DNA of 64,000 nt from a virus, in IMG/VR virus record IMGVR_UViG_3300032046_000021, positions 3,309 to 67,308 of that record; one strand, written 5' to 3'. How positions within the stretch are numbered: position 1 is the first letter of the stretch; each line of letters begins with the position of its first letter. The position numbers were made by a program, and so were the translations under genes. Of the stretch, positions 1,651 through 26,381 are shown one piece after another. The notes beneath the pieces were generated by a model, which saw only the letters and a list, made by a program, of their open reading frames with translations, had not been told where the DNA came from and searched no databases.

Positions 1651-3207
1651 TTACATTCCTCTTATTGTTGGTGCTAAAATTTTCCGATAATACATGGGAT
1701 GAAAAGGAATAGGCTCAACTGGTTTGCCTTTAAGTTCCCATACCAACTGTGCTAGTGCATCAGCGAGATCTTTAGCTCCTTTCCTAGGATGATCCACCTT
1801 TTGGCCCCTGTAAATTTCCAAATTCGTCAACTCATCCTTTAGTGCTTCGTGCTCATAACAGTCAACTTCATGGAGCCGCCAGGCCTCCTTAAGGCGTTCG
1901 TGTTGTTGGAGTTTTACGACGTTGAATTCCACTTGAACTCCTGATTCTCGTATTTCAGCAATCGTTTCTGGGTAGTCCCAACGGTCCACAATGAACTTGC
2001 TGATGTCGAAGCGTTTCTTTAAGGTTCCGATGAAGTACTTGACTTCCGTAGGATCAACTTCAAGTTTTGGAGCGATCTTATGTAGCAGGTCTATGAATAT
2101 GCGGCCATCTTCAGTCAAATGACCTAACGCCAGACCAAAAGACTCAAATTTGGATGCCGGATCGCCTGTTAACACATAATCAAAACTTCTACTGCCCATC
2201 AACCAGTCCGCTATCTCGCCGTCTACTAGTACTGGATTCATTCTTTTCTTATTGAACTCGATTATCGAAACATCTGTATAATACTTTTCGATAGCACGGG
2301 AAGGTTGAGCCCCGTAATCTCGCCAAGCTGCGTCAGGATCCTGTGCAAAGTCGTCCTGCAGCATTGCTTCAGTGATGTTAGGATTCATGTCCCAAGTCGC
2401 GTATTTGTATCCAAGCATAGTTTCGATACGTTTGGATTGTTCGTAAAGTTGATCTATGATGTCGCCTGAGTAGAGTGTTGAGGAAATAGCGACTCGTCTA
2501 GCTTTCAGCGCGGGTACCTTCTTGGTACCACGACCAAGACCATGAAACACCGCCCAACCACTACGTCCACCTTTAGTATCCTGAAATCTACCTAACTCAT
2601 CAAATAATGCAGCTTTAACTGCCCTTCCAACCAATGAGGCACTATTTGACCCACCACACTTTATCGTTACGTGCTTTTGTGGGAAACTGAACTCATTATA
2701 TCTTTCATCTGGATGTAACCATTGGAAGTATGGCGAGTTCTCTATCTTCCCTTTCTCTTGCGCGTATATGGTGTCGTGAGCTTGGTCATCGGAAGTAGCT
2801 ACGTTAAGGACGAAAAATTCCGTACCCGAACCCGCACCGTAAAAGTGTACAGGGTCGTCAAGTGACAAGAGTTCGAATGCCTGCTGGAGTCCGATGCAGG
2901 AAGTGAGGAATGTTTTGCCTGAATTCATTCCAGCTTCTATTATCAAATCGTTATACTGTTGGACGTGAGCTTTAGTGAACTCTTCCATCTTATCGGTACG
3001 TAAAGCATCCTCACGTAACCCTATCCATTCATCAATTGACATAGCCTTTGGGACTCCCCAGATAAATCGTCTGATAACGTCTTTTTCCAAAGGCCACATC
3101 TCCTGTCCCAAAAAGTATGGGTCCTCGCAGAAAAATATAGGATCAAACCTAGCCTGCAGCATCTTATGCATTTGCTCTTCGGGAGCTAGGTCTTCCCAGT
3201 TTTTCAT
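1651..3207 (-). CDS. terL: Terminase large subunit
   Basis: Walker A AGMNSGKT, Walker B ALFDEL, RNase H-like nuclease motifs TGDPA and KVDHP...KDLADALA. Confidence 0.93.
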   Translation of the reverse strand: MKNWEDLAPEEQMHKMLQARFDPIFFCEDPYFLGQEMWPLEKDVIRRFIWGVPKAMSIDEWIGLREDALRTDKMEEFTKAHVQQYNDLIIEAGMNSGKTFLTSCIGLQQAFELLSLDDPVHFYGAGSGTEFFVLNVATSDDQAHDTIYAQEKGKIENSPYFQWLHPDERYNEFSFPQKHVTIKCGGSNSASLVGRAVKAALFDELGRFQDTKGGRSGWAVFHGLGRGTKKVPALKARRVAISSTLYSGDIIDQLYEQSKRIETMLGYKYATWDMNPNITEAMLQDDFAQDPDAAWRDYGAQPSRAIEKYYTDVSIIEFNKKRMNPVLVDGEIADWLMGSRSFDYVLTGDPASKFESFGLALGHLTEDGRIFIDLLHKIAPKLEVDPTEVKYFIGTLKKRFDISKFIVDRWDYPETIAEIRESGVQVEFNVVKLQQHERLKEAWRLHEVDCYEHEALKDELTNLEIYRGQKVDHPRKGAKDLADALAQLVWELKGKPVEPIPFHPMYYRKILAPTIRGM

Positions 3208-3764: not shown

Positions 3765-3933
3765 ATTTCATTAATGTGGGTGGTAAACTATTTAAAATGT
3801 GTTGTTTATATGTTTATTGTAGGAGTTCCCATTCCGCTGTTTTTCCGAGCGGGAAACGGTTAAACGGTTTTACTACCAAGGAAAAAGCCCACTACGTCTA
3901 GTTTATTTATTTATTTAATATAAACGCCTAAAC

Positions 3934-3950
3934 CAAAGAGTTTATATATG
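3934..3950 (+). promoter_or_regulatory. Archaeal BRE/TATA promoter, leaderless transcript
   Basis: CAAAGAG-TTTATATA (TATA 3941-3948) lies about 25 nt upstream of ATG 3974; no SD is present. Confidence 0.7.
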
Positions 3951-3973
3951 CACCTCCCCCATATATACAACTA

Positions 3974-4417
3974 ATGGTGACAACCATGAAAATGATAGGA
4001 GCGTTAGTAACAGAAGAACAACACAAACGATTAAAGCAATGGTGTGGGAGCAATTGTACAACCATCACGAGAGTATTGCAAGATTGTGTGGTAGAATTGT
4101 TGAACTCAGTCGACAGCCTGCCACAGTCTAAGTTGCCAATTAATGCACAGAAAGTTGTAGATGCAGTGTTGCTTGAAAACCAATCGATGCCTACTGGCAA
4201 TCCTAACACCCAAACCACTAAAGAAAACTTCACAGCCAAAAACATTGAAATTCGAGGAATACAATACAAATCCCCCACTCCCTGCCAGATTACCAAAGAT
4301 GCAATAATAGTACCTGAAGACACCTCCGATGACGATATGATGTTATTAGGGGGACTAGGATTAGCTGTTGAATTAAAGACAGGTTGGAAGACTGTTACGC
4401 CACTTACTGTGGTTTAA
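3974..4417 (+). CDS. Ribbon-helix-helix-like DNA-binding protein, paralog of 32936..33316
   Basis: N-terminus 'MIGALVTEEQHKRLKQWC...TITRVLQDCV' is RHH-like. C-terminus IIVPEDTSDDDMMLLG...WKTVTPL matches ITVPNDTAEEDIELIG...WRTDVPL of the paralog. Confidence 0.7.
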   Translation: MVTTMKMIGALVTEEQHKRLKQWCGSNCTTITRVLQDCVVELLNSVDSLPQSKLPINAQKVVDAVLLENQSMPTGNPNTQTTKENFTAKNIEIRGIQYKSPTPCQITKDAIIVPEDTSDDDMMLLGGLGLAVELKTGWKTVTPLTVV

Positions 4418-4547
4418 AATAAATAAATAAATAAATAAACTACTATCTCTTTTTTTAATGTAGTATAACCGTGGAACCGTTTCACAATGGGTGCCATCTA
4501 GCGTTCCCAAAAAAACACTTACAGTCCAAACCGTAAACACTTGAAAC

Positions 4548-4574
4548 TTTACTCTGGGAATTCCGCAGAGTAAA
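4548..4574. repeat. Near-perfect 27-bp palindrome
   Basis: TTTACTCTG-GGAATTCC-G-CAGAGTAAA. Confidence 0.8.
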
Positions 4575-4610
4575 TTCTCGTAGAGATGACATATTCCGTC
4601 ATTTTTATAT

Positions 4611-4770
4611 ATTAAATATTAAGATTCCTTACTTAAGTATTACGACTTAAGATTACGGAGTTTATATTAAGTATTACGACTTATGACGTAAGACTTGAGT
4701 ATTAAGATAAAGGACTGTATATTAAATATTAAGACTTAAGTATTGTTAATTAAGTCTTAAGATTACGGAA
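4611..4770. repeat. Degenerate heptamer array A (TAAGACT/TAAGTCT/TACGACT/TAAGTAT units)
   Basis: e.g. TAAGTAT-TACGACT-TAAGAT, TAAGACT-TAAGTAT, TAAGTCT-TAAGAT. Confidence 0.8.
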
Positions 4771-4920
4771 GTAATATTGTATAGTAAGTAATAGGAGTTA
4801 GGAAAGTATATAAATAAATTAATATTGAATAGTAAGTATTAAGATATAAAAGTTTAAATGGAAATGTAAATTTTAATATTATAAAAAGTTTAAAATTAAG
4901 GAAAGTTTAAATGTAAATGT

Positions 4921-4940
4921 AGAAAAGATTTATATATAAG
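4921..4940 (+). promoter_or_regulatory. BRE/TATA promoter of the C-free operon
   Basis: AGAAAAGA-TTTATATA (TATA 4929-4936); SD-like GGAAAGTGA before ATG 4976. Confidence 0.75.
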
Positions 4941-4975
4941 TTTGTATATTATATAATTAAGGAAAGTGAAAAAAA

Positions 4976-5212
4976 ATGAAAATAAGTGAAAAAGTTTGGG
5001 AAAGTGGAAAAAGTTTGAATGGAAATGAGAAAAAGGAAAAAATATTGGAGGTTTTGGTAAAGGAAGGAATATGTGATATTGAGGAGATAAGGAAAGTAGG
5101 AAAAGAAAAGTGGATATGGGGAAGTTTGAAAAGTTTGGAAGAAGAAGGATTAGTGGAAAGTAGAAAAGTAGGAAAGAAGAAGTTTTATAGGATAAAGGGG
5201 GTGGAAAATTGA
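4976..5212 (+). CDS. Small winged-helix DNA-binding protein (C-free gene 1)
   Basis: Aligns with 6141..6386 and 7909..8151 (WESG...E.ILE.L...EI.K..G.KWI.G.LK.L.E.G.VE.RK.GKK..YRI). Confidence 0.85.
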   Translation: MKISEKVWESGKSLNGNEKKEKILEVLVKEGICDIEEIRKVGKEKWIWGSLKSLEEEGLVESRKVGKKKFYRIKGVEN

Positions 5213-5532
5213 AATTTGAGAATTGGAGTGATAAGAGAATAAAAGAGGAAAATAGGAAAAGAGAAGGAATAAAGGAGGGTATGAAAATGAAAAGTTGGAA
5301 AGAAGTAAAAGAAGAATGTAAGGAAAATGGAGTAGATATGAATAGGTTGAATTGGGTAGATAAAAGAAAAGGAGGAAGAAGAAGGAAAGTTGTAGGAATA
5401 GGAGGAAGTGAGAAAGAAAAAGAGATAATGGAAAGAAATGGATTTAGGAAATATAAAAGTGTGGAAGTAGGAATGAGTAGAGGATATGGATATTGGTGTT
5501 GGGTAAGGTTTGAAAAGGAGGTGGAAAAATGA
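5209..5532 (+). CDS. Hypothetical basic protein (C-free gene 2)
   Basis: TTG start overlaps the previous stop, with SD GGGGGTGG (an alternative ATG lies at 5281). No A/P/T/H/Q residues. Confidence 0.7.
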   Translation: MKFENWSDKRIKEENRKREGIKEGMKMKSWKEVKEECKENGVDMNRLNWVDKRKGGRRRKVVGIGGSEKEKEIMERNGFRKYKSVEVGMSRGYGYWCWVRFEKEVEK

Positions 5533-5732
5533 GTTATAAAAGTTGGGGAGGAAGAAAAATAGTTAGGAGAAAAGATGTGAAAGGAAAATGTGGAGTTTGT
5601 GGAAAAGAGGAAGTGGAAATGATAGAATTGGAAAGGAAAGAAGGAGAAAGTGAGGAAATAGGATTAGTGATGGAAGTTTGTAAGAGTTGTAAGTATGTAA
5701 TAGATTGGGGATTAGGAAAAGAGGATTGGTAG
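5529..5732 (+). CDS. Small Zn-finger protein (C-free gene 3)
   Basis: SD GGAGGTGG, ATGA overlap with the previous gene, CGVC...CKSC. Confidence 0.8.
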   Translation: MSYKSWGGRKIVRRKDVKGKCGVCGKEEVEMIELERKEGESEEIGLVMEVCKSCKYVIDWGLGKEDW

Positions 5733-5752
5733 AAGGATATTAAGTAAGAAAG

Positions 5753-5762
5753 TTTTTTTTTT
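5753..5762 (+). terminator. Oligo-T archaeal terminator
   Basis: T10 run about 20 nt after the stop of the last C-free gene. Confidence 0.7.
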
Positions 5763-5786
5763 GTAAGTTTGGATTTTGGAAATTTA

Positions 5787-6005
5787 GTATCGTAAATCGT
5801 ACGACTTAAGTCTTACTTCTTAATACTTCATACAACTCACCTCACCCTCCCCAAATCTTAAGACTTAAGACTTCAGAAAGTGTCGTAAGTCTTAAGACTC
5901 AAGTCTTAATATACATCTTTCCAAAGTTCCTCTCTGTTTCCATTATAACGGAAAGTTCCAATAATATATAAATACTTTCCCTTGGTATCGTAAGTCTTAC
6001 GACAC
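5787..6005. repeat. Degenerate heptamer array B
   Basis: TACGACT-TAAGTCT-TAC, TAAGACT-TAAGACT, TAAGTCT-TAAGACT-CAAGTCT-TAATAT, TCGTAAGTCTTACGA. Confidence 0.8.
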
Positions 6006-6077
6006 GGAAGTTTACACTTTTATATAAACTTTTAAATGTTTAGGAGTAAGGAAAGTTAAAAAGTTTACACTTTTATG

Positions 6078-6094
6078 TTGACAAAATTTATATA
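6078..6094 (+). promoter_or_regulatory. BRE/TATA promoter
   Basis: TTGACAAAATTTATATA. The same GACAA..TTTATATA pattern occurs at 7047-7061 and 16924-16943. Confidence 0.75.
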
Positions 6095-6140
6095 CTAGAA
6101 AGTATATATTATAAGTGGAAATAAAAGGAGGTGAAAAGGA

Positions 6141-6386
6141 ATGCAAATAAATGCGGAAGAATGGGAAGCGGGAACTGCAGTTTCGGCAAGCGAAAATAAG
6201 GAAGCAATTCTGAAAGCGTTTGCAAAAGTGAAGGGCAAAGGAATGGATATGAAGGAAATTGGAAAGCTAAGCGGACTAAAGTGGCCATATGGAGCAGTAA
6301 AGGCTTTAGTGGAAGATGGAAAGCTGGAACGCAAGCAGTTCGGAAAGAAGTTTGGGTATAGGATGGTAGAAGTTAAGGAGGAATAA
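6141..6386 (+). CDS. Small winged-helix DNA-binding protein
   Basis: SD GGAGGTGA; wHTH pattern ending LVEDGKLERKQFGKKFGYR. Confidence 0.85.
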   Translation: MQINAEEWEAGTAVSASENKEAILKAFAKVKGKGMDMKEIGKLSGLKWPYGAVKALVEDGKLERKQFGKKFGYRMVEVKEE

Positions 6387-6520
6387 ACCTCCTAACTTTC
6401 CATCCTCCAAACTCCAACCTTTGTTTGAAATCCAACCGTGCAAAGTCGGAATTGTAGAACTTTGGCGGCGATGGGGTGAGCCCAACCATATGGCTGCCGG
6501 TAGTGTGGGAACCCGGGGCA

Positions 6521-6600
6521 TGTCGTAAATCCTAAGACTCAAGTCTTACTACTTAAGTCTTAATGTACTCATCTGAACTCCTAAGACTCAAGTAACATAC
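6521..6600. repeat. Degenerate heptamer array C
   Basis: CCTAAGACTCAAGT occurs twice, plus TAAGTCTTAAT. Confidence 0.75.
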
Positions 6601-17592: not shown

Positions 17593-18710
17593 AAAGAATG
17601 AGTAAAATGTCAGAATTTACTACCAAGGTTCTTAGTGAGTGGGCAACTCAACTTGGTAGAGAACCAGCCGAGCTTACGAAGATGTATAATGATGCGTATG
17701 AGATTCTAGCAAAGATGGGCAAGCCAGCGGATCAATTAGAAGAGATGGCAAAAACCAGAGTTAGGTCACAGTTGAGAAACGAATTCGCATCACCTGCAGT
17801 TTCATTCCGGGGCCGTATATTAGCGAAGAGCGACGCATTTAACGTAAATGCGAATGCTTGGGAAGAAGCTGCGGAAATGAATAAGAGTCCAGAAAGGCAA
17901 CAGTGGATCGATCAGAGGGCAATCAACGAAGCAGGCCAACCACTCGATATGAGAGAGATTTTCTCGAAATCCAAGAAGAAGAATCCGAACTTCGGAAAGA
18001 TCCTACCCAAAGAGAATTTCCTCGCGAACGTTTTTGGAGTCTTTTTGTCAGCTAAAGGAGACCCGCTTCCAGGCAAAGTAACGTTGAGTGGCAAGAAGGC
18101 GAAGATTGTGGTTCCAGTTGATGTACCAGTGCAGGTTAGGCTAAATGATAAGTCAGAGAAAGGTGCAACCTATCGAACACTTTCGTCAGGTACTCCGACA
18201 GAATTCAAGCCAATACAGGATCCAGACATCCCCGACGCTGAAACGTTGATAACGATGTATTGTGAGCAGTTCTTTACAACCCTAAAGCACTTAGAGTCAG
18301 TACATCAGGCGTTCATTCCAGCAAATGCAACTAAGCCAGATCCTACTAGGATTACAGTCGTAGAGGCAGAATTGATTAGCTTGGATAGTGAGGTTAATCC
18401 AAAATCTCACAACTACAGAATGGTCATAGGCGACGAGAGTTTAGGGTTTACGGAAAAGGAAAGACGTGGTACAACTGTATGGGTTTCAGAAGCCATATAT
18501 CCAGCAGTCAAAGATGCAGGACGGGGTACAAGGATGTACGTGATAGGCCAGACTACACAGCCGCAAACGAGTAGAGACTTTACGACCGGCGAGACAGTGA
18601 ACAAGCCAGGAGACGTAGGCATTAATGCAATGGGCATATTCGTCAAGAAGGGTTGGTTGATGCCAAAGGATGAGCAGCCGTTCGAGGAAACTGCGGAGGT
18701 TGAAGCGTAA
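17589..18710 (+). CDS. Putative ssDNA-binding (RPA/OB-fold-like) protein
   Basis: 373 aa with a helical N-terminus, beta-rich OB-like segments (MVIGDES...TTVWV...MYVIGQT) and an acidic C-terminal tail; lies in the replication module. Confidence 0.45.
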   Translation: MKRMSKMSEFTTKVLSEWATQLGREPAELTKMYNDAYEILAKMGKPADQLEEMAKTRVRSQLRNEFASPAVSFRGRILAKSDAFNVNANAWEEAAEMNKSPERQQWIDQRAINEAGQPLDMREIFSKSKKKNPNFGKILPKENFLANVFGVFLSAKGDPLPGKVTLSGKKAKIVVPVDVPVQVRLNDKSEKGATYRTLSSGTPTEFKPIQDPDIPDAETLITMYCEQFFTTLKHLESVHQAFIPANATKPDPTRITVVEAELISLDSEVNPKSHNYRMVIGDESLGFTEKERRGTTVWVSEAIYPAVKDAGRGTRMYVIGQTTQPQTSRDFTTGETVNKPGDVGINAMGIFVKKGWLMPKDEQPFEETAEVEA

Positions 18711-19066
18711 TGTCAACTCATTTTGAGCAAATAAAATCCCTACTTTCTTTAACGGGTCAAGCCCATATGGAGGAGTTCCCATATGAACAAGTGTATGTGT
18801 ATTCTATAGTTACTCCTGCAGGGGAGCTAGTTATAGGAGCACTTGGCAAGAAAGGAACTCGTGTTGTCGATGTGGCAGTACTTCCTGGCTTTAGGAAGCT
18901 TGGAATTGCTTCCGCATTAATCGATATAGCGGAAGTTGACCACGCATATGTGGTATCTAAGGAAGCTGAAAACTTCTGGAGCCACATAGGATGGCATTAT
19001 GGTCACAAAACAATAGACAAGGGAGTAGTCGTGAAAGTATACTGTGAAGAGGGGAAGATCGTTTGA
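18710..19066 (+). CDS. GNAT-family acetyltransferase
   Basis: Acetyl-CoA motif A VAVLPGFRKLGIASALI; AENFWSHIGW. Confidence 0.85.
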   Translation: MSTHFEQIKSLLSLTGQAHMEEFPYEQVYVYSIVTPAGELVIGALGKKGTRVVDVAVLPGFRKLGIASALIDIAEVDHAYVVSKEAENFWSHIGWHYGHKTIDKGVVVKVYCEEGKIV

Positions 19067-19482
19067 GTAACGTTGAAGGAATAAAAGCTGTTGTCGGAGT
19101 AAGCTATAGGAAGCATATTAGTGAGTACAGTAAGGAGCTTATAGCGATACCGTTCGGATTTCCGGGCAAACGCGAACTAGTGGAGCATGAAACTGATGAG
19201 CTAACATCTGTGTGTCCAGTTACAGGATTACCGGATTTCTATCATATGGTCATCAGTTACTTGCCGAAGGATTTGCTGGTAGAGCTGAAGTCATTAAAGT
19301 TCTACCTCATGCAATTCAGAGACGTTGGCATCTTGCACGAGGATTTGGCGCAGAAGATATTACAAGACTTTGTTGCAGTAGTACATCCGGAAGTTTGTAC
19401 AGTCGACTTGACAGCAGCTTCAAGGGGAGGAATAAGTACGCACGTGGTTGCGAGATATCCTGAACCAGGAGGAGGTGAGTAG
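19063..19482 (+). CDS. queF: preQ0 reductase QueF
   Basis: CPVTGLPDF, QueF motif ELKSLKFY, HE, RGGI. Confidence 0.9.
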   Translation: MSNVEGIKAVVGVSYRKHISEYSKELIAIPFGFPGKRELVEHETDELTSVCPVTGLPDFYHMVISYLPKDLLVELKSLKFYLMQFRDVGILHEDLAQKILQDFVAVVHPEVCTVDLTAASRGGISTHVVARYPEPGGGE

Positions 19483-21031: not shown

Positions 21032-21445
21032 ATGGTAAAAGAACGAATTAGGATATTAAGTATCGATAGTATCGAGTTCGATGCAGCACATTATATTCCG
21101 GGACATCCCAAATGTGGGTGTATTCATGGTCACACGTTCTTTGTTCGGAACCTAAGAGTATACTGCAACAAGTTTGTGGACTTTGGAAAGATCAAGGAAG
21201 AGATCCGTCATTGGGATCATATACTTGTGATTCCGAAGAAGCATATGGACTTTTGGTACTCAAAAATTAATCCATTATTACATGAAATTGGAATCAACCA
21301 ATGCTTTATGATAGTTGATGGTGAGCCATCAGTCGAAGATATTTCGGATTTGATAGTAGCTCAGCTAAAAACTATTCCTGGAGTTGTTGATGTACACTTC
21401 ACTCTTTGTGAAGGACCACATCAGAGAGTTGAGGGGTTTGAGTAA
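21032..21445 (+). CDS. queD: 6-carboxytetrahydropterin synthase QueD
   Basis: FDAAHYIPGHPKCGCIHGHT, DFGKIK, WDH, PSVE. Confidence 0.92.
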   Translation: MVKERIRILSIDSIEFDAAHYIPGHPKCGCIHGHTFFVRNLRVYCNKFVDFGKIKEEIRHWDHILVIPKKHMDFWYSKINPLLHEIGINQCFMIVDGEPSVEDISDLIVAQLKTIPGVVDVHFTLCEGPHQRVEGFE

Positions 21446-21563
21446 GCCAGCAAAGTGCTGTCCTCATTGTGGTACGGATCTTAGTGACTATACTCTTCCT
21501 TCAGATGAATATTGGAAAACTCGTTGCCCGTATTGCGGAGGTAAGTTAGATGTTAGTAAATGA
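21438..21563 (+). CDS. 41-aa Zn-ribbon protein
   Basis: TTG start, CPHC...CPYC; fills the gap between queD and queE. Confidence 0.55.
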   Translation: MSKPAKCCPHCGTDLSDYTLPSDEYWKTRCPYCGGKLDVSK

Positions 21564-22179
21564 AATCTTCGAATCAATTCAAGGAGAAGGTACATACCTC
21601 GGATACCCCGCACTCTTTATACGTTTGCAGGGATGCAATTTGAAGTGTTGGTTCTGTGACACGAAGTATGCATTAGGAATGTATGAGGACGGAATGGATG
21701 TTAGGCCCGAAAGCTTGGTTGCGTTAATCAGAAACTCACCTTCCTATCACGTTGTGTTTACAGGAGGGGAACCTTTACTTCAACAGAAAGAGATAGGTAA
21801 AGTTATACGTGAGGTTCAGAGAGCCAAGTTCTATGAAGTGGAAACTAACGGGACAATCAAGCCTAATATTGAGTTTTTGGTTCACCTTTTCACAGTATCA
21901 CCTAAGGATGACTTTCAAATTTCACCTAGCTTTTTCGAGATACCGGGAGTGGTTTTTAAGTTCGTGGTTGATAAAGAGGAGGATTTGGAGAAAATCGAGA
22001 ACTTTGTAGACTTACACAACATCACAAGGCCAGTGTACTTGATGCCACAAGCTACTACACTGTTGGAGCATAAGAAGAAGTTACCGATGCTTTTTGAGTT
22101 CGTGAAAGTGCATCAAGGGCACTATAGGATTACGCCTAGGTTGCAGATTTTGGCGTATGGGAAGAGGAAGGGAGTTTGA
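21550..22179 (+). CDS. queE: 7-carboxy-7-deazaguanine synthase QueE (radical SAM)
   Basis: FESIQGEG, CNLKCWFCDT, TGGEPLLQ, ETNGT, SPK. Confidence 0.95.
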   Translation: MLVNEIFESIQGEGTYLGYPALFIRLQGCNLKCWFCDTKYALGMYEDGMDVRPESLVALIRNSPSYHVVFTGGEPLLQQKEIGKVIREVQRAKFYEVETNGTIKPNIEFLVHLFTVSPKDDFQISPSFFEIPGVVFKFVVDKEEDLEKIENFVDLHNITRPVYLMPQATTLLEHKKKLPMLFEFVKVHQGHYRITPRLQILAYGKRKGV

Positions 22180-24053
22180 GGGTGAAAGTATGAAAGGTGA
22201 TGCAGAGTGTGAGGATCATACCTGTGAGTATCTCAGGTATTGTGTATGGCATCCAAATGAATGTTATGGAAAGCCTTGGAAAGTGAAAGAAATGTTAGCG
22301 CCACACACTTACATATTGAGCACTGTTAACTTCATCACGCCAGAAGGCAAAGTGATTCATAGAGACATTATGCAGGAAGTTGTTGACGTTAATGGTAATT
22401 ACTATTGTGTGATATATAAACGGATGTCAAAGCAGCAACAGGAACTCATGGATATACTACAAACTCAGTTTGTAGAGTATTTAGTAGAACCGGAGGCAAA
22501 AGCTTGTACGAGATGTTGAGCAATCTAGGTGCAAACCTTTGCGCAAGGGAAATAAGCAAACAAGTATGGACTGTGTATAAAGAGCAATCCTTCAGTGAGA
22601 CGGAAGGAGACCCAGAGTGCGGTCGTCTTGTACAAGTTGCCATATCCGGTATTAGGAGGTGTTAAAGTTGGTTAAAAAAGAAGCCAGAAAGCAACTTTTT
22701 CTAGAGGCAAACGATACTTTAATAATAAGGAACACAACCGCAAATGTAATGCGGTTAGAAACGGATAAGGACTATGTAGAAATTCCTCCAACCGAAGCGA
22801 TAGTAGTAGTGCGCGAAACTATGTGGGTGAGTTACAGTGAGCACTCTAGCCGGTTATATAAGTTCCTTCGCATGACTTTCTGGCAAAGGTTAAGGTGGGC
22901 ACTTTCAAGAAAGGCAGTTGAGGTGATAGAATGAATCTCCTAAAGAAACTACGTACCCTCATTCGTCGTCCTGCGGTAACCGTAAGGGAACTGCAAGACA
23001 CTGAGGTTGCGCGGGCAGTAAGTCCCGGGCGACATCAGCAAGAAAATGCTGAGTCTCATAAGAGAGATGGCCTAAGTCACGGTCCTAAACTACGTGACTC
23101 AGTGGCCTCGCCTGTAGAGAGAGAAATCAGGGGGATAAGTCCTGCGCCCTCTTTAGTTCAGAAAGGTATCGTTACGGCAGCAAGTGTTCAAGAAGTTCGA
23201 CAGCAATTAGACCGAGAAGCATTTTTTAGGCAACTTAACAAAAGAGATATCCCAGTTATTCGTCGTCCACTTGGCGACATCCGTGCGGTACGCAAGATGA
23301 AGCACGGTCACCAATCACCATATTATCGGAAGAGTGTGAAAGCAAATGTCAAGCCAGAAGAAGAGGAAGAAGCATGAGTGAAGGTTTGAAAGAGAAAACC
23401 AAGAAATGTGGTTGTTACCACTGTTCTTGCTGTAGGTTCTATCATGGTTTTGCGAAGGGTTGCGAGTTGCCTGGGTGTGCCTACGTTTTGGTTTCGGTTG
23501 CACAGCGAGACAAAGAAAATGAATTGTCGAAACAACAAGAAGCTTTCCAGAAACAAGTTGGCTATTTGAAAGAAGACATTAAAAAACTGGAGAGGGAGCG
23601 TGGCTTGCTAAAACAGAAACTACACCAATTTCCCAAGTTGCCTAAAAATCCTAACACGGCAGACAGAATTAATCACTCGATTGAGTGTCTTGAGTGGCTA
23701 GAACAGTTCAGGGAGTTGCTTCGGGAATGAGTCTGAAACAGAAAATCCAAGAAAAAGCCAAAACTATCAATGAATTAGAAAAAATCCTCTACCAAAAATC
23801 AAGGTACGCCTCACGGGAATTCATCTATGAAAAAGACAAACAAGAAACATGGATTACGGTTGATGATGTCACTGCTTTGTTGGGTGAAGCCACAAAATGT
23901 CCTAGATGTGGAGCAAATCTTCAAACTTATTGTCCTAATGCAAAATGTGAAGGCTACATGAGGGATGGGGATAAGGAACAATTCTACGATAAAAAATCTG
24001 GAAAATGGTTGGCTGTTTTGGGTGCGGATGGAAAGGAGAAGGCGAAACCATGA
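22157..24053 (+). CDS. Five hypothetical genes (22157..22519, 22659..22934, 22931..23377, 23374..23730, 23727..24053) interrupting the Que cluster
   Basis: Mostly overlapping start/stop codons with SD motifs; several are Cys-rich. Confidence 0.6.
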
Positions 24054-24736
24054 CACACGACGTTCAAGAAGAACAAGCTGATGATCTAGGAATAATGGCA
24101 GGTATCTCTAACTACAGCATAGTGATAAAGTCCTCTAAGTGGACACTCTTCATTGAGTTGGAAGTGAAGGTTCCGATACTCAATAAACGGGGAGCACATA
24201 TGAGCAGGTTGATATTCCCAGAGACAGTGAAGTGTGAGAGTGTTGAGCAGTTTATTAACGATGCAAAGAAGTTGATAAAGGAAAAAACTGGCGTTTACCC
24301 CTACATCAAAATGGTGTTTAAGTTTCCGTGGAAGGATCAGTTTCCAACTATTATCGTCGAGAACTATATTGCCATAGGAAATGAATACACGTATATTATG
24401 AAAGGGATAACTGCGTGTCCTTGTTCAAAGGAAAGCATAGGTATCGGGCATATGCAGAAGTGTGAGTTGAAGATAAAGATAAATGCTAAACTTCCACACC
24501 CCAAATTTGAGGACATATTTAGGTTGATGGAAAGTTGCTTTTCTGCATCGTTGACGGAGAAGTTGAAGAGAGATGAGGAAGCTGCTAAGATTAAGGAAGC
24601 TCAGGATAATGCAAAATTCGTCGAGGATGTCGTGAGGCACGCGATTATGAATATTCCTAATATTAGGTATGCGAGAGCAGAGTCGGATGAAAGTATTCAC
24701 AGTCATAAGGCGGTAGCGGAGTGGTGGAGGAGGTGA
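24050..24736 (+). CDS. folE2: GTP cyclohydrolase IB (FolE2/MptA family)
   Basis: DVQ, RGAHMSR, TACPCS, HMQ, NAKFVEDVVR, ESIHSH. Start reassigned to ATG 24050. Confidence 0.9.
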   Translation: MTHDVQEEQADDLGIMAGISNYSIVIKSSKWTLFIELEVKVPILNKRGAHMSRLIFPETVKCESVEQFINDAKKLIKEKTGVYPYIKMVFKFPWKDQFPTIIVENYIAIGNEYTYIMKGITACPCSKESIGIGHMQKCELKIKINAKLPHPKFEDIFRLMESCFSASLTEKLKRDEEAAKIKEAQDNAKFVEDVVRHAIMNIPNIRYARAESDESIHSHKAVAEWWRR

Positions 24737-24741
24737 CTTAG

Positions 24742-25464
24742 ATGGAAGTTATGGTTACAAAATCTCAACGTTCGACAGTCGTATCTCCAGCATTTAGTAA
24801 ACCTTCAACAAAGGTTGTAATGTTGTTGAGTGGGGGAGTTGACTCTGCTACCTTAGCATACTATTTGCTGAAACAGCATCAGGAAGTATACGCACTGACT
24901 GTTGATTATGGGCAAAAGCACTTTAAGGAACTCCGAGCAGCCGTAGAAATTGCTCATGCTGCAGGTATAAGTTGGAAAGTTCTTGATTTACGAACGTTAC
25001 AACCTCTGCTTAAAAGTGCATTGACTACTAATGATCCAATCCCAGAAGGCCACTATACTGCAGAGTCTCAGAAGTTAACAGTCGTACCCAACAGAAACGC
25101 TATCCTATTGAACATTGCTGCTGGCTACGCAATTAGCATAGGCGCCAACACTATTGCGTATGCTGCACATAGGAACGATAGGACAATATACCCCGACTGC
25201 AGGCCAGAGTTTGTGGGCGCGTTACAGGCAGCATTGGATGCCGGAACAGATGCAGATTTACTGGTATATGCACCGTTCATTAACATGACGAAGGCGCAAA
25301 TTGTGGAACTAGGTATATCATTGAACGTTCCCTTTGAATTAACCTGGTCATGTTATAAGGGAGGACAAAAGGCGTGTGGCAGGTGTGGAACGTGTGTGGA
25401 ACGATTAGAGGCATTTGCGTTGAATCATGTTAAGGATCCAATTGAGTATGAGGGAGTAATATGA
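24742..25464 (+). CDS. queC: 7-cyano-7-deazaguanine synthase QueC
   Basis: LSGGVDS, VPNRN, YPDCR, TWSCY...CGRCGTC. Confidence 0.96.
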   Translation: MEVMVTKSQRSTVVSPAFSKPSTKVVMLLSGGVDSATLAYYLLKQHQEVYALTVDYGQKHFKELRAAVEIAHAAGISWKVLDLRTLQPLLKSALTTNDPIPEGHYTAESQKLTVVPNRNAILLNIAAGYAISIGANTIAYAAHRNDRTIYPDCRPEFVGALQAALDAGTDADLLVYAPFINMTKAQIVELGISLNVPFELTWSCYKGGQKACGRCGTCVERLEAFALNHVKDPIEYEGVI

Positions 25465-25622: not shown

Positions 25623-26381
25623 GTGAAGTTAGCAATAATCAGTCCAACAGTACACCTAACCGAACTTAGTAGCCTAGGGGACATTCAGTTTGCTCTTGGT
25701 CATGTTAAGGATCTTAAGTACGTTGAGTACTATCGTGAACAAGCAAAACAAACGTACACTATTATGGATAACGGAAGTTATGAACTTGGCAAGAGCGTCA
25801 GTTTTGACGACATATTCGAAGCAGCGGAAGAGATAAAGCCTGACGAAATCGTCGCACCGGATGTGCAGTGGAATCCAGTTGAGTCTCTGAATCTAACTCG
25901 ACACTTCATGAAATATGCGCATGGGCGCGGGTTACGAGATAAGTACAAGATTATGGTTGTTGTCTGGGCGTTTGACCCAGGAGACTTTCCGATGTGGTAC
26001 AAGGAGTACCTCAAGTTGAACCCCGATGTAATTGGTATCGGAAAATGGCTGTCAACGAAATTCCTAGCAAGGCCTAGTGTTGTTCAATTGTTGAAATATG
26101 AGCATATGTGGAAGAGTGATATTGAGCACCATTTTCTGGGATGTGGTTTTCCTGGCGAAGCACTCCAACTGCATGATGAGGGGCGCTCAATGGACACTAG
26201 CGGACCAATCGCCGATGCTATGAATGGGTTGAGATATGTGGAAGGTGAGGAATACTTAAACCTTCATACGAGTTCGTTGAAGAGGAGTTTGGACTTTAAT
26301 GCCCGGTTAACACCTGAGCAACTCGAAATAGCCAAAGCAAACTGTCGGTTAATGTTAACCTATGCACATGGAGGAAAATAA
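25623..26381 (+). CDS. dpdA: DpdA-like DNA guanine transglycosylase (TGT fold)
   Basis: MDNGSYE, VAPD, GIG, HFLG and SMDTS match TGT catalytic motifs; adjacent to queC. Confidence 0.75.
   Translation: MKLAIISPTVHLTELSSLGDIQFALGHVKDLKYVEYYREQAKQTYTIMDNGSYELGKSVSFDDIFEAAEEIKPDEIVAPDVQWNPVESLNLTRHFMKYAHGRGLRDKYKIMVVVWAFDPGDFPMWYKEYLKLNPDVIGIGKWLSTKFLARPSVVQLLKYEHMWKSDIEHHFLGCGFPGEALQLHDEGRSMDTSGPIADAMNGLRYVEGEEYLNLHTSSLKRSLDFNARLTPEQLEIAKANCRLMLTYAHGGK

What the first reader, a model, noticed from the sequence alone, without database searches (positions are those of the whole stretch)
4767..5790. A 1024-nt cytosine-free transcription unit (G-free template strand) in a guanine-hypermodifying virus
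Seen: there is no C on the + strand from 4767 to 5790. Even at only 10% C this has a chance of about 1e-47. The block covers about 160 nt upstream of the TATA box, the promoter, three coupled genes and a T10 terminator, and C reappears about 30 nt after the terminator. The proteins use a 15-amino-acid alphabet (no A, P, T, H, Q; Ser only AGT, Arg only AGR, Leu only TTR). Gene 1 is still a recognisable wHTH paralog of the normal genes at 6141 and 7909, which points to selection rather than decay. Known: FolE2/QueD/QueE/QueC/QueF/DpdA produce 7-deazaguanine-modified viral DNA. Inference: this is an immediate-early 'bootstrap' cassette whose template strand has no modifiable G, so host TBP/TFB/RNAP can read it before viral factors exist. 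Alternatives: (a) a C-free strand cannot contain any G/C-containing palindrome, so it escapes such restriction sites; (b) the strand is exposed as ssDNA and purged of deaminable C; (c) the mRNA avoids CTP limitation, C-specific RNases or certain tRNAs. The extension beyond the transcript favours a DNA-level cause. I know of no described equivalent.
Basis: partly seen in the sequence, partly recalled or inferred. Interest (0 to 1): 0.97.

Follow-up and report, generated by a model that had tools for sequence, protein, structure and literature searches.

The report
Virus early genes written without cytosine
A tailed, probably archaeal virus keeps its first three regulatory genes, with their promoters and spacers, completely free of the DNA letter C on the coding strand; related viruses do the same, natural selection maintains it, and the cause is still open.

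Summary
The + strand has no C from 4767 to 5790 (1024 nt); the next-longest C-free run in the window is 48 nt. Contigs from two other sequencing runs reproduce the sequence.

It is selected, not decay. Five diverged metagenome relatives carry C-free tracts of 953 to 2206 nt at the same place. Between the window and one relative, 0 of 106 differences in the island genes involve C, against 133 of 287 in flanking genes. Homologous proteins down to different 50%-identity clusters still lack Ala, Pro, Thr, His and Gln.

The causal link to guanine modification is not shown:
- 0 of 3 cultured phages with fully replaced G has a kb-scale island; one has a single near-C-free gene.
- In relatives the island holds two transcription units.
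- Synonymous T is also avoided, which a template-G rule does not predict.

My best reading (about 40%) is selection on the first transcripts at the RNA level. The modification link is the main rival (about 30%).

Other agents of this scan noted C-free early genes in other viruses. Four paper searches found no description in print.

The parts
4767..5790 (+). Cytosine-free island (sense strand A/G/T only; the opposite strand has no G)
   Evidence: 0 C in 1024 nt; relatives have C-free tracts of 953-2206 nt at the syntenic place.
4849..4956 (+). Promoter region. A TATA-like TTTATATA at 4929-4936 lies 47 nt before the ATG. 4849-4903 is a 67%-identical upstream duplicate of 4902-4956. Further TATA-like A/T blocks sit at about 4806, 4843 and 4876. 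No transcription start site has been mapped.
   Evidence: repeat family D3, which also matches the promoter of gene 6141 at 6060-6114. Reading these as promoters is inference.
4976..5212 (+). Gene 1: 78-aa winged-helix-type DNA-binding protein, a C-free paralog of the genes at 6141 and 7909
   Evidence: 38-39% identity to the paralogs. (Pfam TrmB E 0.0015, 18.8 bits, below the cut-off of 25.6). (6 of 6 non-self homologs lack A, P, T, H, Q).
5281..5532 (+). Gene 2: small basic protein of unknown fold family. The ORF is open from TTG 5209, but homologs start at MKSWKEV, so the likely start is ATG 5281 or 5287.
   Evidence: AlphaFold model with pLDDT 71, order H-E-E-H-E-E. No PDB match at E <= 1e-3.
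5529..5732 (+). Gene 3: 67-aa CxxC...CxxC zinc-ribbon protein; its start overlaps the stop of gene 2 (ATGA)
   Evidence: Only a weak Pfam DUF5679 hit (E 0.01). Relatives L009 and L011 have a zinc-ribbon gene behind its own promoter.
5753..5762 (+). T10 run without a hairpin, a probable archaeal-type terminator; C reappears 29 nt later
   Evidence: One search found 0 hairpin terminators. The same T-run plus about 30 C-free nt is seen in L008.
4600..4766 (.). Upstream array of CTTAAGA/CTTAAGT-type repeats that contain C; the island starts where the array ends
   Evidence: families D1, D2, D6; inverted pairs with the downstream array.
5791..5910 (.). Downstream array of the same repeats, enclosing a 51-nt G-free pyrimidine tract (5811-5861) that contains CACCTC
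   Evidence: Equivalent tracts in L008 and L011.
6141..6386 (+). Next early gene: a normal-alphabet wHTH paralog with its own promoter (C 10%)
1651..3207 (-). Terminase large subunit. The packaging and structural arm starts about 1 kb left of the island and runs the other way.
   Evidence: phrog_17415, E 5e-17.
18710..19482 (+). GNAT acetyltransferase-like gene followed by QueF (context for the modification rival)
   Evidence: PF13508 E 4.3e-5, below cut-off; PF14489 QueF E 5.4e-23.
21032..25464 (+). QueD-like (21032-21445), radical-SAM QueE-like (21550-22179), FolE2 (24005-24736) and QueC (24742-25464), interleaved with unassigned ORFs
25623..26381 (+). TGT-fold, DpdA3-like candidate DNA guanine transglycosylase
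   Evidence: BLASTP to phiST CGPG_00065, 24% identity, E 7e-9. (tblastn hit to the annotated transglycosylase of immuto_2-6A, E 1e-3). (pLDDT 82.9; top PDB matches all TGT). The Pfam TGT and DUF6610 models find nothing.

Best explanation
The tract is the immediate-early control cassette of a tailed, probably archaeal virus. It holds its own promoter(s), three small genes (a winged-helix regulator, a basic protein of unknown fold and a zinc-ribbon protein) and a T-run terminator. It lies between the packaging/structural arm and the early/replication arm.

Shown: purifying selection removes every C from the sense strand of this cassette. It has done so while the proteins diverged past 50% identity and while genes inside the cassette were exchanged.

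Also shown: the cassette is purine-loaded (79% purine in its genes), avoids T at synonymous sites, and gives an RNA with almost no secondary structure.

Inferred: the selection acts through transcription and, most likely, on the RNA. The first messages, made by unaided host polymerase, would be built so that nothing which needs a C (and, less strictly, U) in nascent single-stranded RNA can stop or cut them. My preferred candidate is factor-dependent termination and cleavage by the aCPSF1/FttA nuclease, the archaeal counterpart of Rho. Other C-directed agents fit equally: chain-terminating CTP analogues, C-specific RNases, CTP shortage.

The effect would be that the three regulators are made under any condition, and they then set up the rest of the programme.
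For: Selection:
- 5 of 5 diverged relatives keep C-free tracts of 953-2206 nt at the same syntenic place.
- 0 of 106 nucleotide differences in genes 1 and 2 between the window and L009 involve C, against 133 of 287 in three flanking genes.
- 6 of 6 gene-1 homologs and 4 of 5 gene-2 homologs lack A, P, T, H, Q.
- 5 of 14 fetched representatives of other 50%-identity clusters also lack them.
- L008 carries a different second gene that is also C-free.

RNA-level signs:
- T-ending codons among Gly GGN, Val GTN and Ile ATH are 31 of 177 in island genes, against 370 of 855 in other + arm genes (Fisher p 3.5e-11).
- Leaders, spacers and the 3' end up to and just past the terminator are C-free.
- Sense-strand C rises along the presumed temporal order: 0 in the island, 0.145 at 6-16 kb, 0.172 at 16-34 kb, 0.198 in the structural arm.
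- The transcript folds at -21.7 kcal/mol, against -194 for an equally long neighbour.

Published basis for the candidate factor:
- P. abyssi aCPSF1 cuts single-stranded RNA preferentially at CA, and a C-to-U change abolishes a site (PMC3553952, passages).
- FttA is that family's termination factor. It loads on nascent RNA like Rho and prefers U-rich RNA (PMC13681488, passages).
- In bacteria, purine bias of sense strands is driven by Rho avoidance (PMC13323073, abstract).
Against: - There are no RNA data, so transcript ends are unknown (one search listed no RNA holder).
- At least about 40-160 nt of C-free DNA lies upstream of the recognisable TATA boxes. In relatives about 1 kb of repeat array is C-free too. 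This fits an RNA-level cause only if these parts are transcribed.
- CA is not depleted in the virus's other genes (odds ratio 1.13-1.20). The CA-specific form of the FttA idea therefore has no genome-wide support.
- The idea does not explain why the virus, and reportedly other viruses with C-free early genes, carries a DpdA3-like G-replacement gene set.
- In phage immuto's near-C-free gene, T is not avoided (15 T-ending against 13 purine-ending codons).
- The host is unknown.
Confidence: 0.4

Rival explanations
1. Template-strand G avoidance linked to DNA modification. The virion DNA would carry a bulky preQ1-derived base in place of G. The cassette's template strand has no G, so unaided host polymerase reads it at full speed from the incoming genome before any viral factor exists.
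For: - The virus has FolE2, QueD-like, QueE-like, QueC and QueF genes, a GNAT-like gene next to QueF, and a TGT-fold DpdA3-like protein.
- DpdA3 is the subfamily tied to complete G replacement (Cui 2023, PMC10516641, passages).
- Relatives with the island seem to carry the DpdA3-like gene too. Homologs sit on contigs of 67,352 and 65,617 nt, the same lengths as the contigs of the C-free wHTH homologs. That they are the same contigs is inference.
- The cultured phage immuto_2-6A (DpdA3 + QueF + formyltransferase; G fully replaced) has one near-C-free gene: gp143, 5 C in 357 nt.
- The two fully replaced phages without QueF, whose bases carry no or a small 7-substituent, have none. This fits in-vitro data that unsubstituted 7-deazaG is transcribed well while bulkier 7-substituents inhibit (PMC4838386).
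- Unchecked notes of other agents report the same co-occurrence in immuto-like phages and in another archaeal virus.
- The early-to-late rise in sense-strand C also fits this idea.
Against: - 0 of 3 fully G-replaced cultured phages has a kb-scale island.
- In immuto, only gp143 of the 26 small genes tallied at 66.8-76.1 kb is near C-free; the others have 5.5-33% C. Template G is therefore tolerated.
- A 53-kb viral contig with a distant DpdA3-like gene (83% complete) has no tract longer than 56 nt.
- The in-vitro inhibition was at initiation, not elongation, and the island's promoters keep G on the + strand.
- Synonymous T avoidance is not predicted.
- The next early genes have template G, yet must also be read.
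- No modification has been measured for this virus.
Confidence: 0.3
2. A DNA-level cause unrelated to RNA content. The + strand of this region would be repeatedly single-stranded, either as a replication-origin R-loop or displaced strand, or as the genome end next to the packaging genes. C would then be lost by deamination or counter-selected.
For: - The island sits at the switch of gene orientation and GC skew.
- It lies about 1 kb from the terminase genes.
- It is flanked by iteron-like repeat arrays.
- C-free DNA extends beyond the recognisable promoter, and in relatives over a 1-kb repeat array.
- Purine-rich RNA on a pyrimidine-rich template favours R-loops (my own knowledge).
- Notes of other agents describe C-free arms beside packaging sites of SPbeta-like phages (unchecked).
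Against: - Deamination turns C into T, yet T is depleted, not enriched, at synonymous sites: 17.5% against 43%.
- Reading frames, ribosome-binding sites and overlapping stop-start signals are intact, so this is not decay.
- Neither R-loop stability nor origin function needs total absence of C.
- The source is a sediment metagenome, which gives no sign of a high-temperature habitat. Habitat temperature was not established.
Confidence: 0.12
3. Avoidance of restriction sites, PAMs or cytosine methylation. A strand without C cannot carry any palindrome that contains G or C.
For: It follows by construction that no G/C-containing palindrome is possible in 1 kb. Leading-region site avoidance is known in phages such as T7 and T5 (my own knowledge).
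Against: - It needs far less than total exclusion of one base on one strand.
- Non-palindromic sites remain possible.
- It does not explain the link to transcription direction, the purine loading or the synonymous T avoidance.
- The virus appears to have a general anti-restriction base modification.
Confidence: 0.04
4. Artefact, chance or a low-complexity repeat.
For: In relatives, part of the extra length is a degenerate 12-nt tandem array whose unit has no C.
Against: - Independent contigs from two other runs are identical.
- The core is unique coding sequence with intact, conserved, diverging genes.
- The chance probability is about 1e-98 (from the counts).
Confidence: 0.01

Closest known systems
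Purine loading of sense strands, explained in bacteria as avoidance of the terminator Rho (Dierksheide et al. 2026, PMC13323073; abstract read)
   Same: The bias is strand-specific and follows the direction of transcription. There is purine excess and C shortage on the sense strand. It shapes codon use. A graded version is seen in this virus's other genes.
   Different: Here the exclusion is absolute over 1-2 kb, includes promoters and spacers, and removes five amino acids from the proteins. The host is probably archaeal and would have FttA rather than Rho (my own knowledge). No factor has been tested.
Engineered C-less / G-less cassettes for in-vitro transcription (my own knowledge, no paper read)
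   Same: A transcribed stretch that lacks one base, so the RNA can be made without one nucleotide.
   Different: Those are synthetic, non-coding tools. This is natural, encodes three conserved proteins and is kept by selection.
Viral 7-deazaguanine DNA modification with DpdA3-type complete G replacement (Hutinet 2019, search listing only; Cui 2023, PMC10516641, passages read)
   Same: The virus has the preQ1 pathway and a TGT-fold DpdA3-like protein. Phage immuto_2-6A, with a comparable gene set, has one near-C-free gene.
   Different: The papers describe the chemistry and anti-restriction role. In the passages I read (the term 'transcription' occurs 0 times in Cui 2023) there is nothing on G-free template strands. 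CP220 and phiST have no such tract.
aCPSF1/FttA-dependent termination and RNA cleavage in archaea (PMC3553952 and PMC13681488; passages read)
   Same: A universal archaeal factor that loads on nascent RNA, prefers U-rich RNA and cuts at single-stranded CA. A C-free, U-poor RNA offers none of this.
   Different: No paper read links it to viral sequence composition. CA is not depleted elsewhere in this genome.
Motif avoidance in the first-entering DNA of phages (T7 and T5 leading regions; my own knowledge)
   Same: Early genes lie next to the packaging region, and their sequence composition seems to be shaped by what the incoming DNA meets first.
   Different: Those cases avoid specific sites on both strands. 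Here one base is absent from one strand. Which end enters first is not known for this virus.

Membership tests
Viral 7-deazaguanine DNA-modification system (preQ pathway + DpdA) | GTP cyclohydrolase I (FolE or FolE2) | tested here: met
   PF02649 FolE2, E 3.6e-29, 102.5 bits (cut-off 25), at 24005-24733.
Viral 7-deazaguanine DNA-modification system (preQ pathway + DpdA) | QueD, QueE and QueC | tested here: met
   QueC: PF06508, E 1.4e-66. QueE-like: radical SAM + Fer4_12, 209 aa (superfamily level only). QueD: TIGR03367, E 2.3e-9 but 37.5 bits, below the cut-off of 89.
Viral 7-deazaguanine DNA-modification system (preQ pathway + DpdA) | QueF (preQ0 to preQ1) | tested here: met
   PF14489, E 5.4e-23, 81.5 bits (cut-off 27.3).
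Viral 7-deazaguanine DNA-modification system (preQ pathway + DpdA) | DpdA-family DNA guanine transglycosylase | tested here: met
   For the 252-aa protein at 25623-26378: BLASTP to phiST DpdA3, E 7e-9 over the full length. tblastn hits to immuto's annotated transglycosylase (E 1e-3) and to Campylobacter phages. Model with pLDDT 82.9; the listed top PDB matches (ranks 1-50) are all TGT, E 1.4e-8, TM 0.62-0.64. Against: the Pfam TGT and DUF6610 HMMs find nothing in the genome, and there is no PDB sequence hit. Catalytic residues were not checked.
Viral 7-deazaguanine DNA-modification system (preQ pathway + DpdA) | Modified guanine actually present in virion DNA, and at what level | not testable with these tools
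   Needs LC-MS or nanopore sequencing of virions. The record is an uncultured metagenomic genome.
Purine loading / terminator-avoiding sense-strand bias | Purine excess and C shortage on the sense strand, following the direction of transcription | tested here: met
   purine fraction is 0.788 in island genes, 0.600 and 0.573 in the + arm, and 0.545 in the structural arm. Sense-strand C is 0, 0.145, 0.172 and 0.198.
Purine loading / terminator-avoiding sense-strand bias | Dependence on a termination factor that reads C/U in nascent RNA (Rho, or FttA in archaea) | not testable with these tools
   The host is unknown and no RNA data exist. Indirect check: CA is not depleted in the other genes (odds ratio 1.13-1.20), which does not support a CA-specific pressure genome-wide.
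Mutational strand skew by deamination (for example GRINS, known to me only from another agent's note) | C replaced by T on the exposed strand | tested here: not met
   T-ending synonymous codons are 17.5% in island genes against 43% in other + arm genes; fourfold sites are 62-81% A.
Winged-helix regulators of the TrmB/ArsR/PadR kind (gene 1) | Match to a curated wHTH family model | tested here: inconclusive
   TrmB E 0.0015, 18.8 bits, below the cut-off of 25.6; several other wHTH families at E 0.04-0.07. JGI names two homologs 'predicted transcriptional regulator' and one 'ArsR family'.

The most novel reading that the evidence does not exclude
Viruses that replace every guanine of their DNA with a bulky preQ1-derived base keep the template strand of their very first genes free of G. 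The cassette would be the only part of the incoming genome that unaided host RNA polymerase can read at full rate, and its three small proteins would then adapt transcription to modified DNA. This would be a new functional coupling between DNA hypermodification and gene-sequence alphabet, shared by archaeal viruses and immuto-like bacteriophages.
Probability: 0.3. Interest if true: 0.95.

Novelty: categorically new. Interest (0 to 1): 0.88.

Why it matters
Natural protein-coding genes written with three of the four bases, and therefore with 15 amino acids, are not described in any paper my searches reached.

Here the state is absolute, about 1-2 kb long, and conserved through deep divergence and gene turnover. 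Some agent in the infected cell must therefore penalise single cytosines in the first viral messages, or single guanines in the strand that is copied. Finding that agent would reveal one of three things:
- a host activity against early viral RNA;
- a cost of DNA hypermodification for transcription;
- a new rule of genome-end biology.

The cassette also offers ready-made, evolved examples of functional reduced-alphabet proteins, including a winged-helix domain with normal-alphabet paralogs in the same genome. It is also a natural C-less transcription unit for archaeal biochemistry.

Because the rivals make different predictions for simple in-vitro transcription assays, the question is directly testable.

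Tried and rejected
Led nowhere or uninformative:
- The nearest relative (IMG/VR contig of 66,891 nt) has the identical block. Identity is complete from about 4672 to 6500, while the flanks differ by 3-5%. This is a shared mosaic segment and says nothing about selection on C.
- The look-up of sequencing runs listed no RNA holder, so nothing can be said on expression.
- Read laying used Logan contigs only, so no transcript ends or raw-read check were possible.
- Rfam gave only a sub-threshold miRNA-family hit on the - strand at 5825-5897.
- The sigma-70 and hairpin-terminator scan is not meaningful for archaeal signals.
- The model of gene 2 had no convincing PDB match.
- PDB sequence searches for two candidate transglycosylases found nothing useful.
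- The Pfam TGT and DUF6610 models found nothing in the genome.
- Three distant DpdA3-like viral contigs were fragments or 83% complete. None has a base-free tract longer than 56 nt in what I held. This is weak evidence either way.
- One search used wrong reading frames for two relatives' genes. Its codon table is void and is replaced.

Considered and rejected:
- Deamination-driven decay (T is depleted).
- Chance, or an AT-rich promoter effect.
- A single transcription unit as the general unit of the island.
- Necessity of G-free templates in all fully G-replaced phages.
- A genome-wide CA-avoidance signature.

Literature:
- No description of natural cytosine-free genes turned up. Nothing on transcription of such tracts turned up.
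- These searches cover only the held library and exact words.
Supplementary Data S1 of Cui 2023, which lists viruses with DpdA3 or DpdA4, could bear on the co-occurrence claim.
Full report
**1. The observation**

The + strand of the window has no cytosine from 4767 to 5790. The counts are A 469, G 300, T 255, C 0. The next-longest C-free runs in the 64 kb are 48, 48 and 46 nt. No other base is missing for more than 51 nt. The window has 19.8% C overall, so the chance of such a run is about 1e-98 (my arithmetic).

The window is bases 3309-67308 of a 67,308-nt IMG/VR virus record that CheckV rates as complete. The whole record holds no second tract of this kind.

The tract is not an assembly artefact. 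Logan contigs from two other runs reproduce it without a single difference over 4796-6400, 4900-5317 and 5618-5762. These are contigs, not raw reads.

**2. Anatomy**

- The tract starts where an array of C-containing CTTAAGA-type repeats ends (4600-4766).
- About 200 nt of A/T-rich DNA follows, with several TATA-like blocks. The last, TTTATATA at 4929, lies 47 nt before the first ATG. This is the same layout as at the neighbouring gene 6141.
- 4849-4903 is a partial duplicate of this promoter region.
- Three genes follow:
  - 4976-5212: 78 aa, winged-helix type, 38-39% identical to the normal-alphabet paralogs at 6141 and 7909.
  - 5281-5532: the frame is open from 5209, but homologs start at MKSWKEV.
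  - 5529-5732: 67 aa, CxxC...CxxC.
- A T10 run at 5753-5762 has no hairpin. C returns at 5791, where the repeat array resumes.
- Directly behind lies a 51-nt G-free pyrimidine tract (5811-5861).
- The 335 non-coding bases of the tract have no C, against 16.9% C in 3,200 nt of other intergenic DNA of the same arm.

**3. Genomic setting**

- To the left, on the other strand, lies the packaging and structural arm. The 517-aa protein at 1651-3204 is a terminase large subunit.
- To the right, on the + strand, lie small early genes, then a UvrD-type helicase, PolB, ERCC4 nuclease, MazG and the queuosine-precursor genes.
- Gene orientation and GC skew switch at the island.
- I infer an archaeal host from the promoter and terminator style and from FolE2, ERCC4 and the TrmB-like regulators. 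This is not shown.

**4. Selection**

The nearest relative (66,891 nt) has the identical block. However, identity is complete over about 2 kb that includes normal DNA, so it is uninformative.

*Protein homologs.*
- For gene 1, 7 proteins passed E <= 0.01 among 12 candidates. All 6 non-self ones (76-87% identity) lack Ala, Pro, Thr, His and Gln.
- For gene 2, 6 proteins passed among 11 candidates. Of the 5 non-self ones (59-82% identity), 4 lack these residues and one has 3 of them.

*Metagenome loci.* A pattern scan of metagenome contigs returned 6 loci. One is the close relative again. The other 5 all carry a C-free tract: 953, 2108, 2206, 1672 and at least 1733 nt. They sit in the same gene order.

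*Substitutions.* Between the window and L009, genes 1 and 2 differ at 106 of 438 aligned sites, and none of these differences involves C. In three flanking genes, 133 of 287 differences do.

*Deeper divergence.*
- A profile search of 1.84 billion cluster representatives gave 16 hits at E <= 1e-3.
- I fetched 14, leaving out two long multi-stretch hits. Five of the 14 have none of the five residues.
- I built a tree of 22 rows, leaving out the two-domain P0033.
- All 12 residue-free proteins fall on one side of the deepest split (support 83/87). One protein with six such residues is nested among them. The 9 normal ones, including both window paralogs, fall on the other side.
- Shared composition may inflate that grouping.

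**5. What relatives add**

- The content of the island changes but the rule stays.
- L009-L012 have about 1 kb of a degenerate 12-nt tandem array inside the island, upstream of the promoters. Because the repeat unit itself has no C, this extra length is weaker evidence than the unique core.
- L009 and L011 have a T10 terminator after gene 2 and a second promoter before the zinc-ribbon gene. The island is therefore not one transcription unit.
- L008 has a different second gene, also C-free.

**6. The modification premise**

- Pfam and NCBIfam confirm FolE2, QueC and QueF. They also find a QueE-like radical-SAM protein, a weak QueD, and a GNAT-like protein next to QueF.
- The Pfam TGT and DUF6610 models find no transglycosylase.
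- The 252-aa protein at 25623-26378 aligns over its full length with phiST CGPG_00065 (E 7e-9). Cui et al. 2023 name that protein DpdA3 (PMC10516641, passages).
- The same protein also hits the annotated DNA guanine transglycosylase of phage immuto_2-6A and Campylobacter phages.
- Its AlphaFold model (pLDDT 82.9) matches tRNA-guanine transglycosylases best (E 1.4e-8).
- So the virus very probably modifies its G. Whether replacement is complete, and with what base, is unknown.

**7. Test of the link**

Cui et al. state that DpdA3 completely modifies CP220, phiST and immuto_2-6A. I read all three genomes.

| Phage | Genome (nt) | Longest C-free run | Longest G-free run |
|---|---|---|---|
| CP220 | 177,534 | 78 | 111 |
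| phiST | 79,114 | 63 | 83 |
| immuto_2-6A | 160,410 | 158 | 59 |

- Immuto has one near-C-free segment. It is gene gp143, with 5 C in 357 nt. The 25 neighbouring small genes have 5.5-33% C.
- So 0 of 3 has a kb-scale island and 1 of 3 has one such gene.
- The one positive is the phage with QueF and an acyl-transferase, like this virus. This keeps a narrower form of the idea alive, in which only bulky preQ1 derivatives matter.
- In-vitro data point the same way. Unsubstituted 7-deazaG templates are transcribed well and bulkier 7-substituents inhibit. However, the effect was at initiation, and the enzymes were bacterial (PMC4838386).
- Homologs of the DpdA3-like protein sit on contigs of the same lengths as those that carry C-free wHTH homologs. 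That is co-inheritance within one lineage, not independent support.

**8. Signs that point to the RNA**

- At codons where A, G and T are all allowed without changing the protein (Gly GGN, Val GTN, Ile ATH), island genes use T in 31 of 177 cases. Other + arm genes use it in 370 of 855, and structural genes in 575 of 1269 (p 3.5e-11).
- C has thus been replaced by purines, mostly A, and U is disfavoured too.
- This argues against deamination, and a rule about template G does not predict it.
- Sense-strand C rises in steps from the island (0) through the early (0.145) and middle (0.172) genes to the structural arm (0.198).
- The RNA is almost structure-free: -21.7 kcal/mol for 808 nt, against -194 for a neighbour.
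- A published candidate agent exists. aCPSF1 cuts single-stranded CA (PMC3553952). As FttA, it terminates transcription on nascent RNA with a preference for U-rich RNA, in analogy to Rho (PMC13681488). In bacteria, Rho drives purine bias (PMC13323073, abstract).
- Against the specific form: CA is not depleted elsewhere in this genome, and in immuto gp143 T is not avoided.

**9. Verdict**

- The feature is real, conserved and maintained by selection.
- I rate a transcription-linked, RNA-level cause as most likely (about 0.4).
- The modification-linked template reading comes next (about 0.3).
- A DNA-level cause tied to the origin or genome end is about 0.12.
- Site avoidance is about 0.04, and artefact about 0.01.
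- The remainder is unassigned.

**10. Novelty**

- Searches for several wordings of 'cytosine-free' found no description. The 7-deazaguanine papers I read do not mention it.
- Other agents of this scan have noted C-free early genes in T4-like flavobacterial phages, other archaeal tailed viruses and a methanogen provirus.
- Those are unchecked notes. Of them I verified only the immuto gene.
- No look-alike of this window was in the scan.

Noticed in passing
window 5811-5861; L008 3137-3187; L011 4029-4073: Directly behind the island, every variant has a G-free, C/T-rich tract of about 45-51 nt. It contains CACCTC-type words, which are complementary to the GGAGGTG ribosome-binding sites inside the island and resemble the 3' end of 16S rRNA (the rRNA resemblance is from memory). 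Function unknown.
   Followed up: no
L009 8780-9790; L010 about 60-1200; L011 2400-2760: A degenerate 12-nt tandem array (AATTGA plus six variable bases) of up to about 1 kb lies inside the C-free island of relatives, upstream of the promoters. One frame stays open as a (D-Y-V-I)n peptide of 91-113 aa. It is probably a protein-binding array; the window lacks it.
   Followed up: partly
window 3818-6560 against L005: The two near-identical viruses differ by 3-5% in general, yet are identical over about 4672-6500. They are unalignable over 3818-4545, which holds the RHH gene. This is a recombination mosaic around the control region.
   Followed up: partly
window 18710-19482: A GNAT-like gene abuts queF. 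In phage immuto_2-6A a formyltransferase lies two genes downstream of DpdA and two genes upstream of QueF. An N-acylated preQ1 base is a reasonable guess for this virus.
   Followed up: no
L027 18330-18686 (NC_055915.1 68330-68686): [quoted passage not shown] The neighbouring small genes have 5.5-33% C. It is the only such segment in the 160-kb genome.
   Followed up: yes
window, all genes: Sense-strand C content rises stepwise with the presumed order of expression: island 0, genes at 6-16 kb 0.145, genes at 16-34 kb 0.172, structural arm 0.198. Purine content falls from 0.79 to 0.55.
   Followed up: partly
P0012 (homolog of gene 2): One homolog of gene 2 has a 45-residue C-terminal extension that also lacks Ala, Pro, Thr, His and Gln. 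The rule holds for added sequence as well.
   Followed up: no
window 4413-4459: A 47-nt G-free tract with (AAAT)n lies behind the RHH gene, upstream of the repeat array. The same (AAAT)n block follows the RHH gene in L008, L009 and L011.
   Followed up: no
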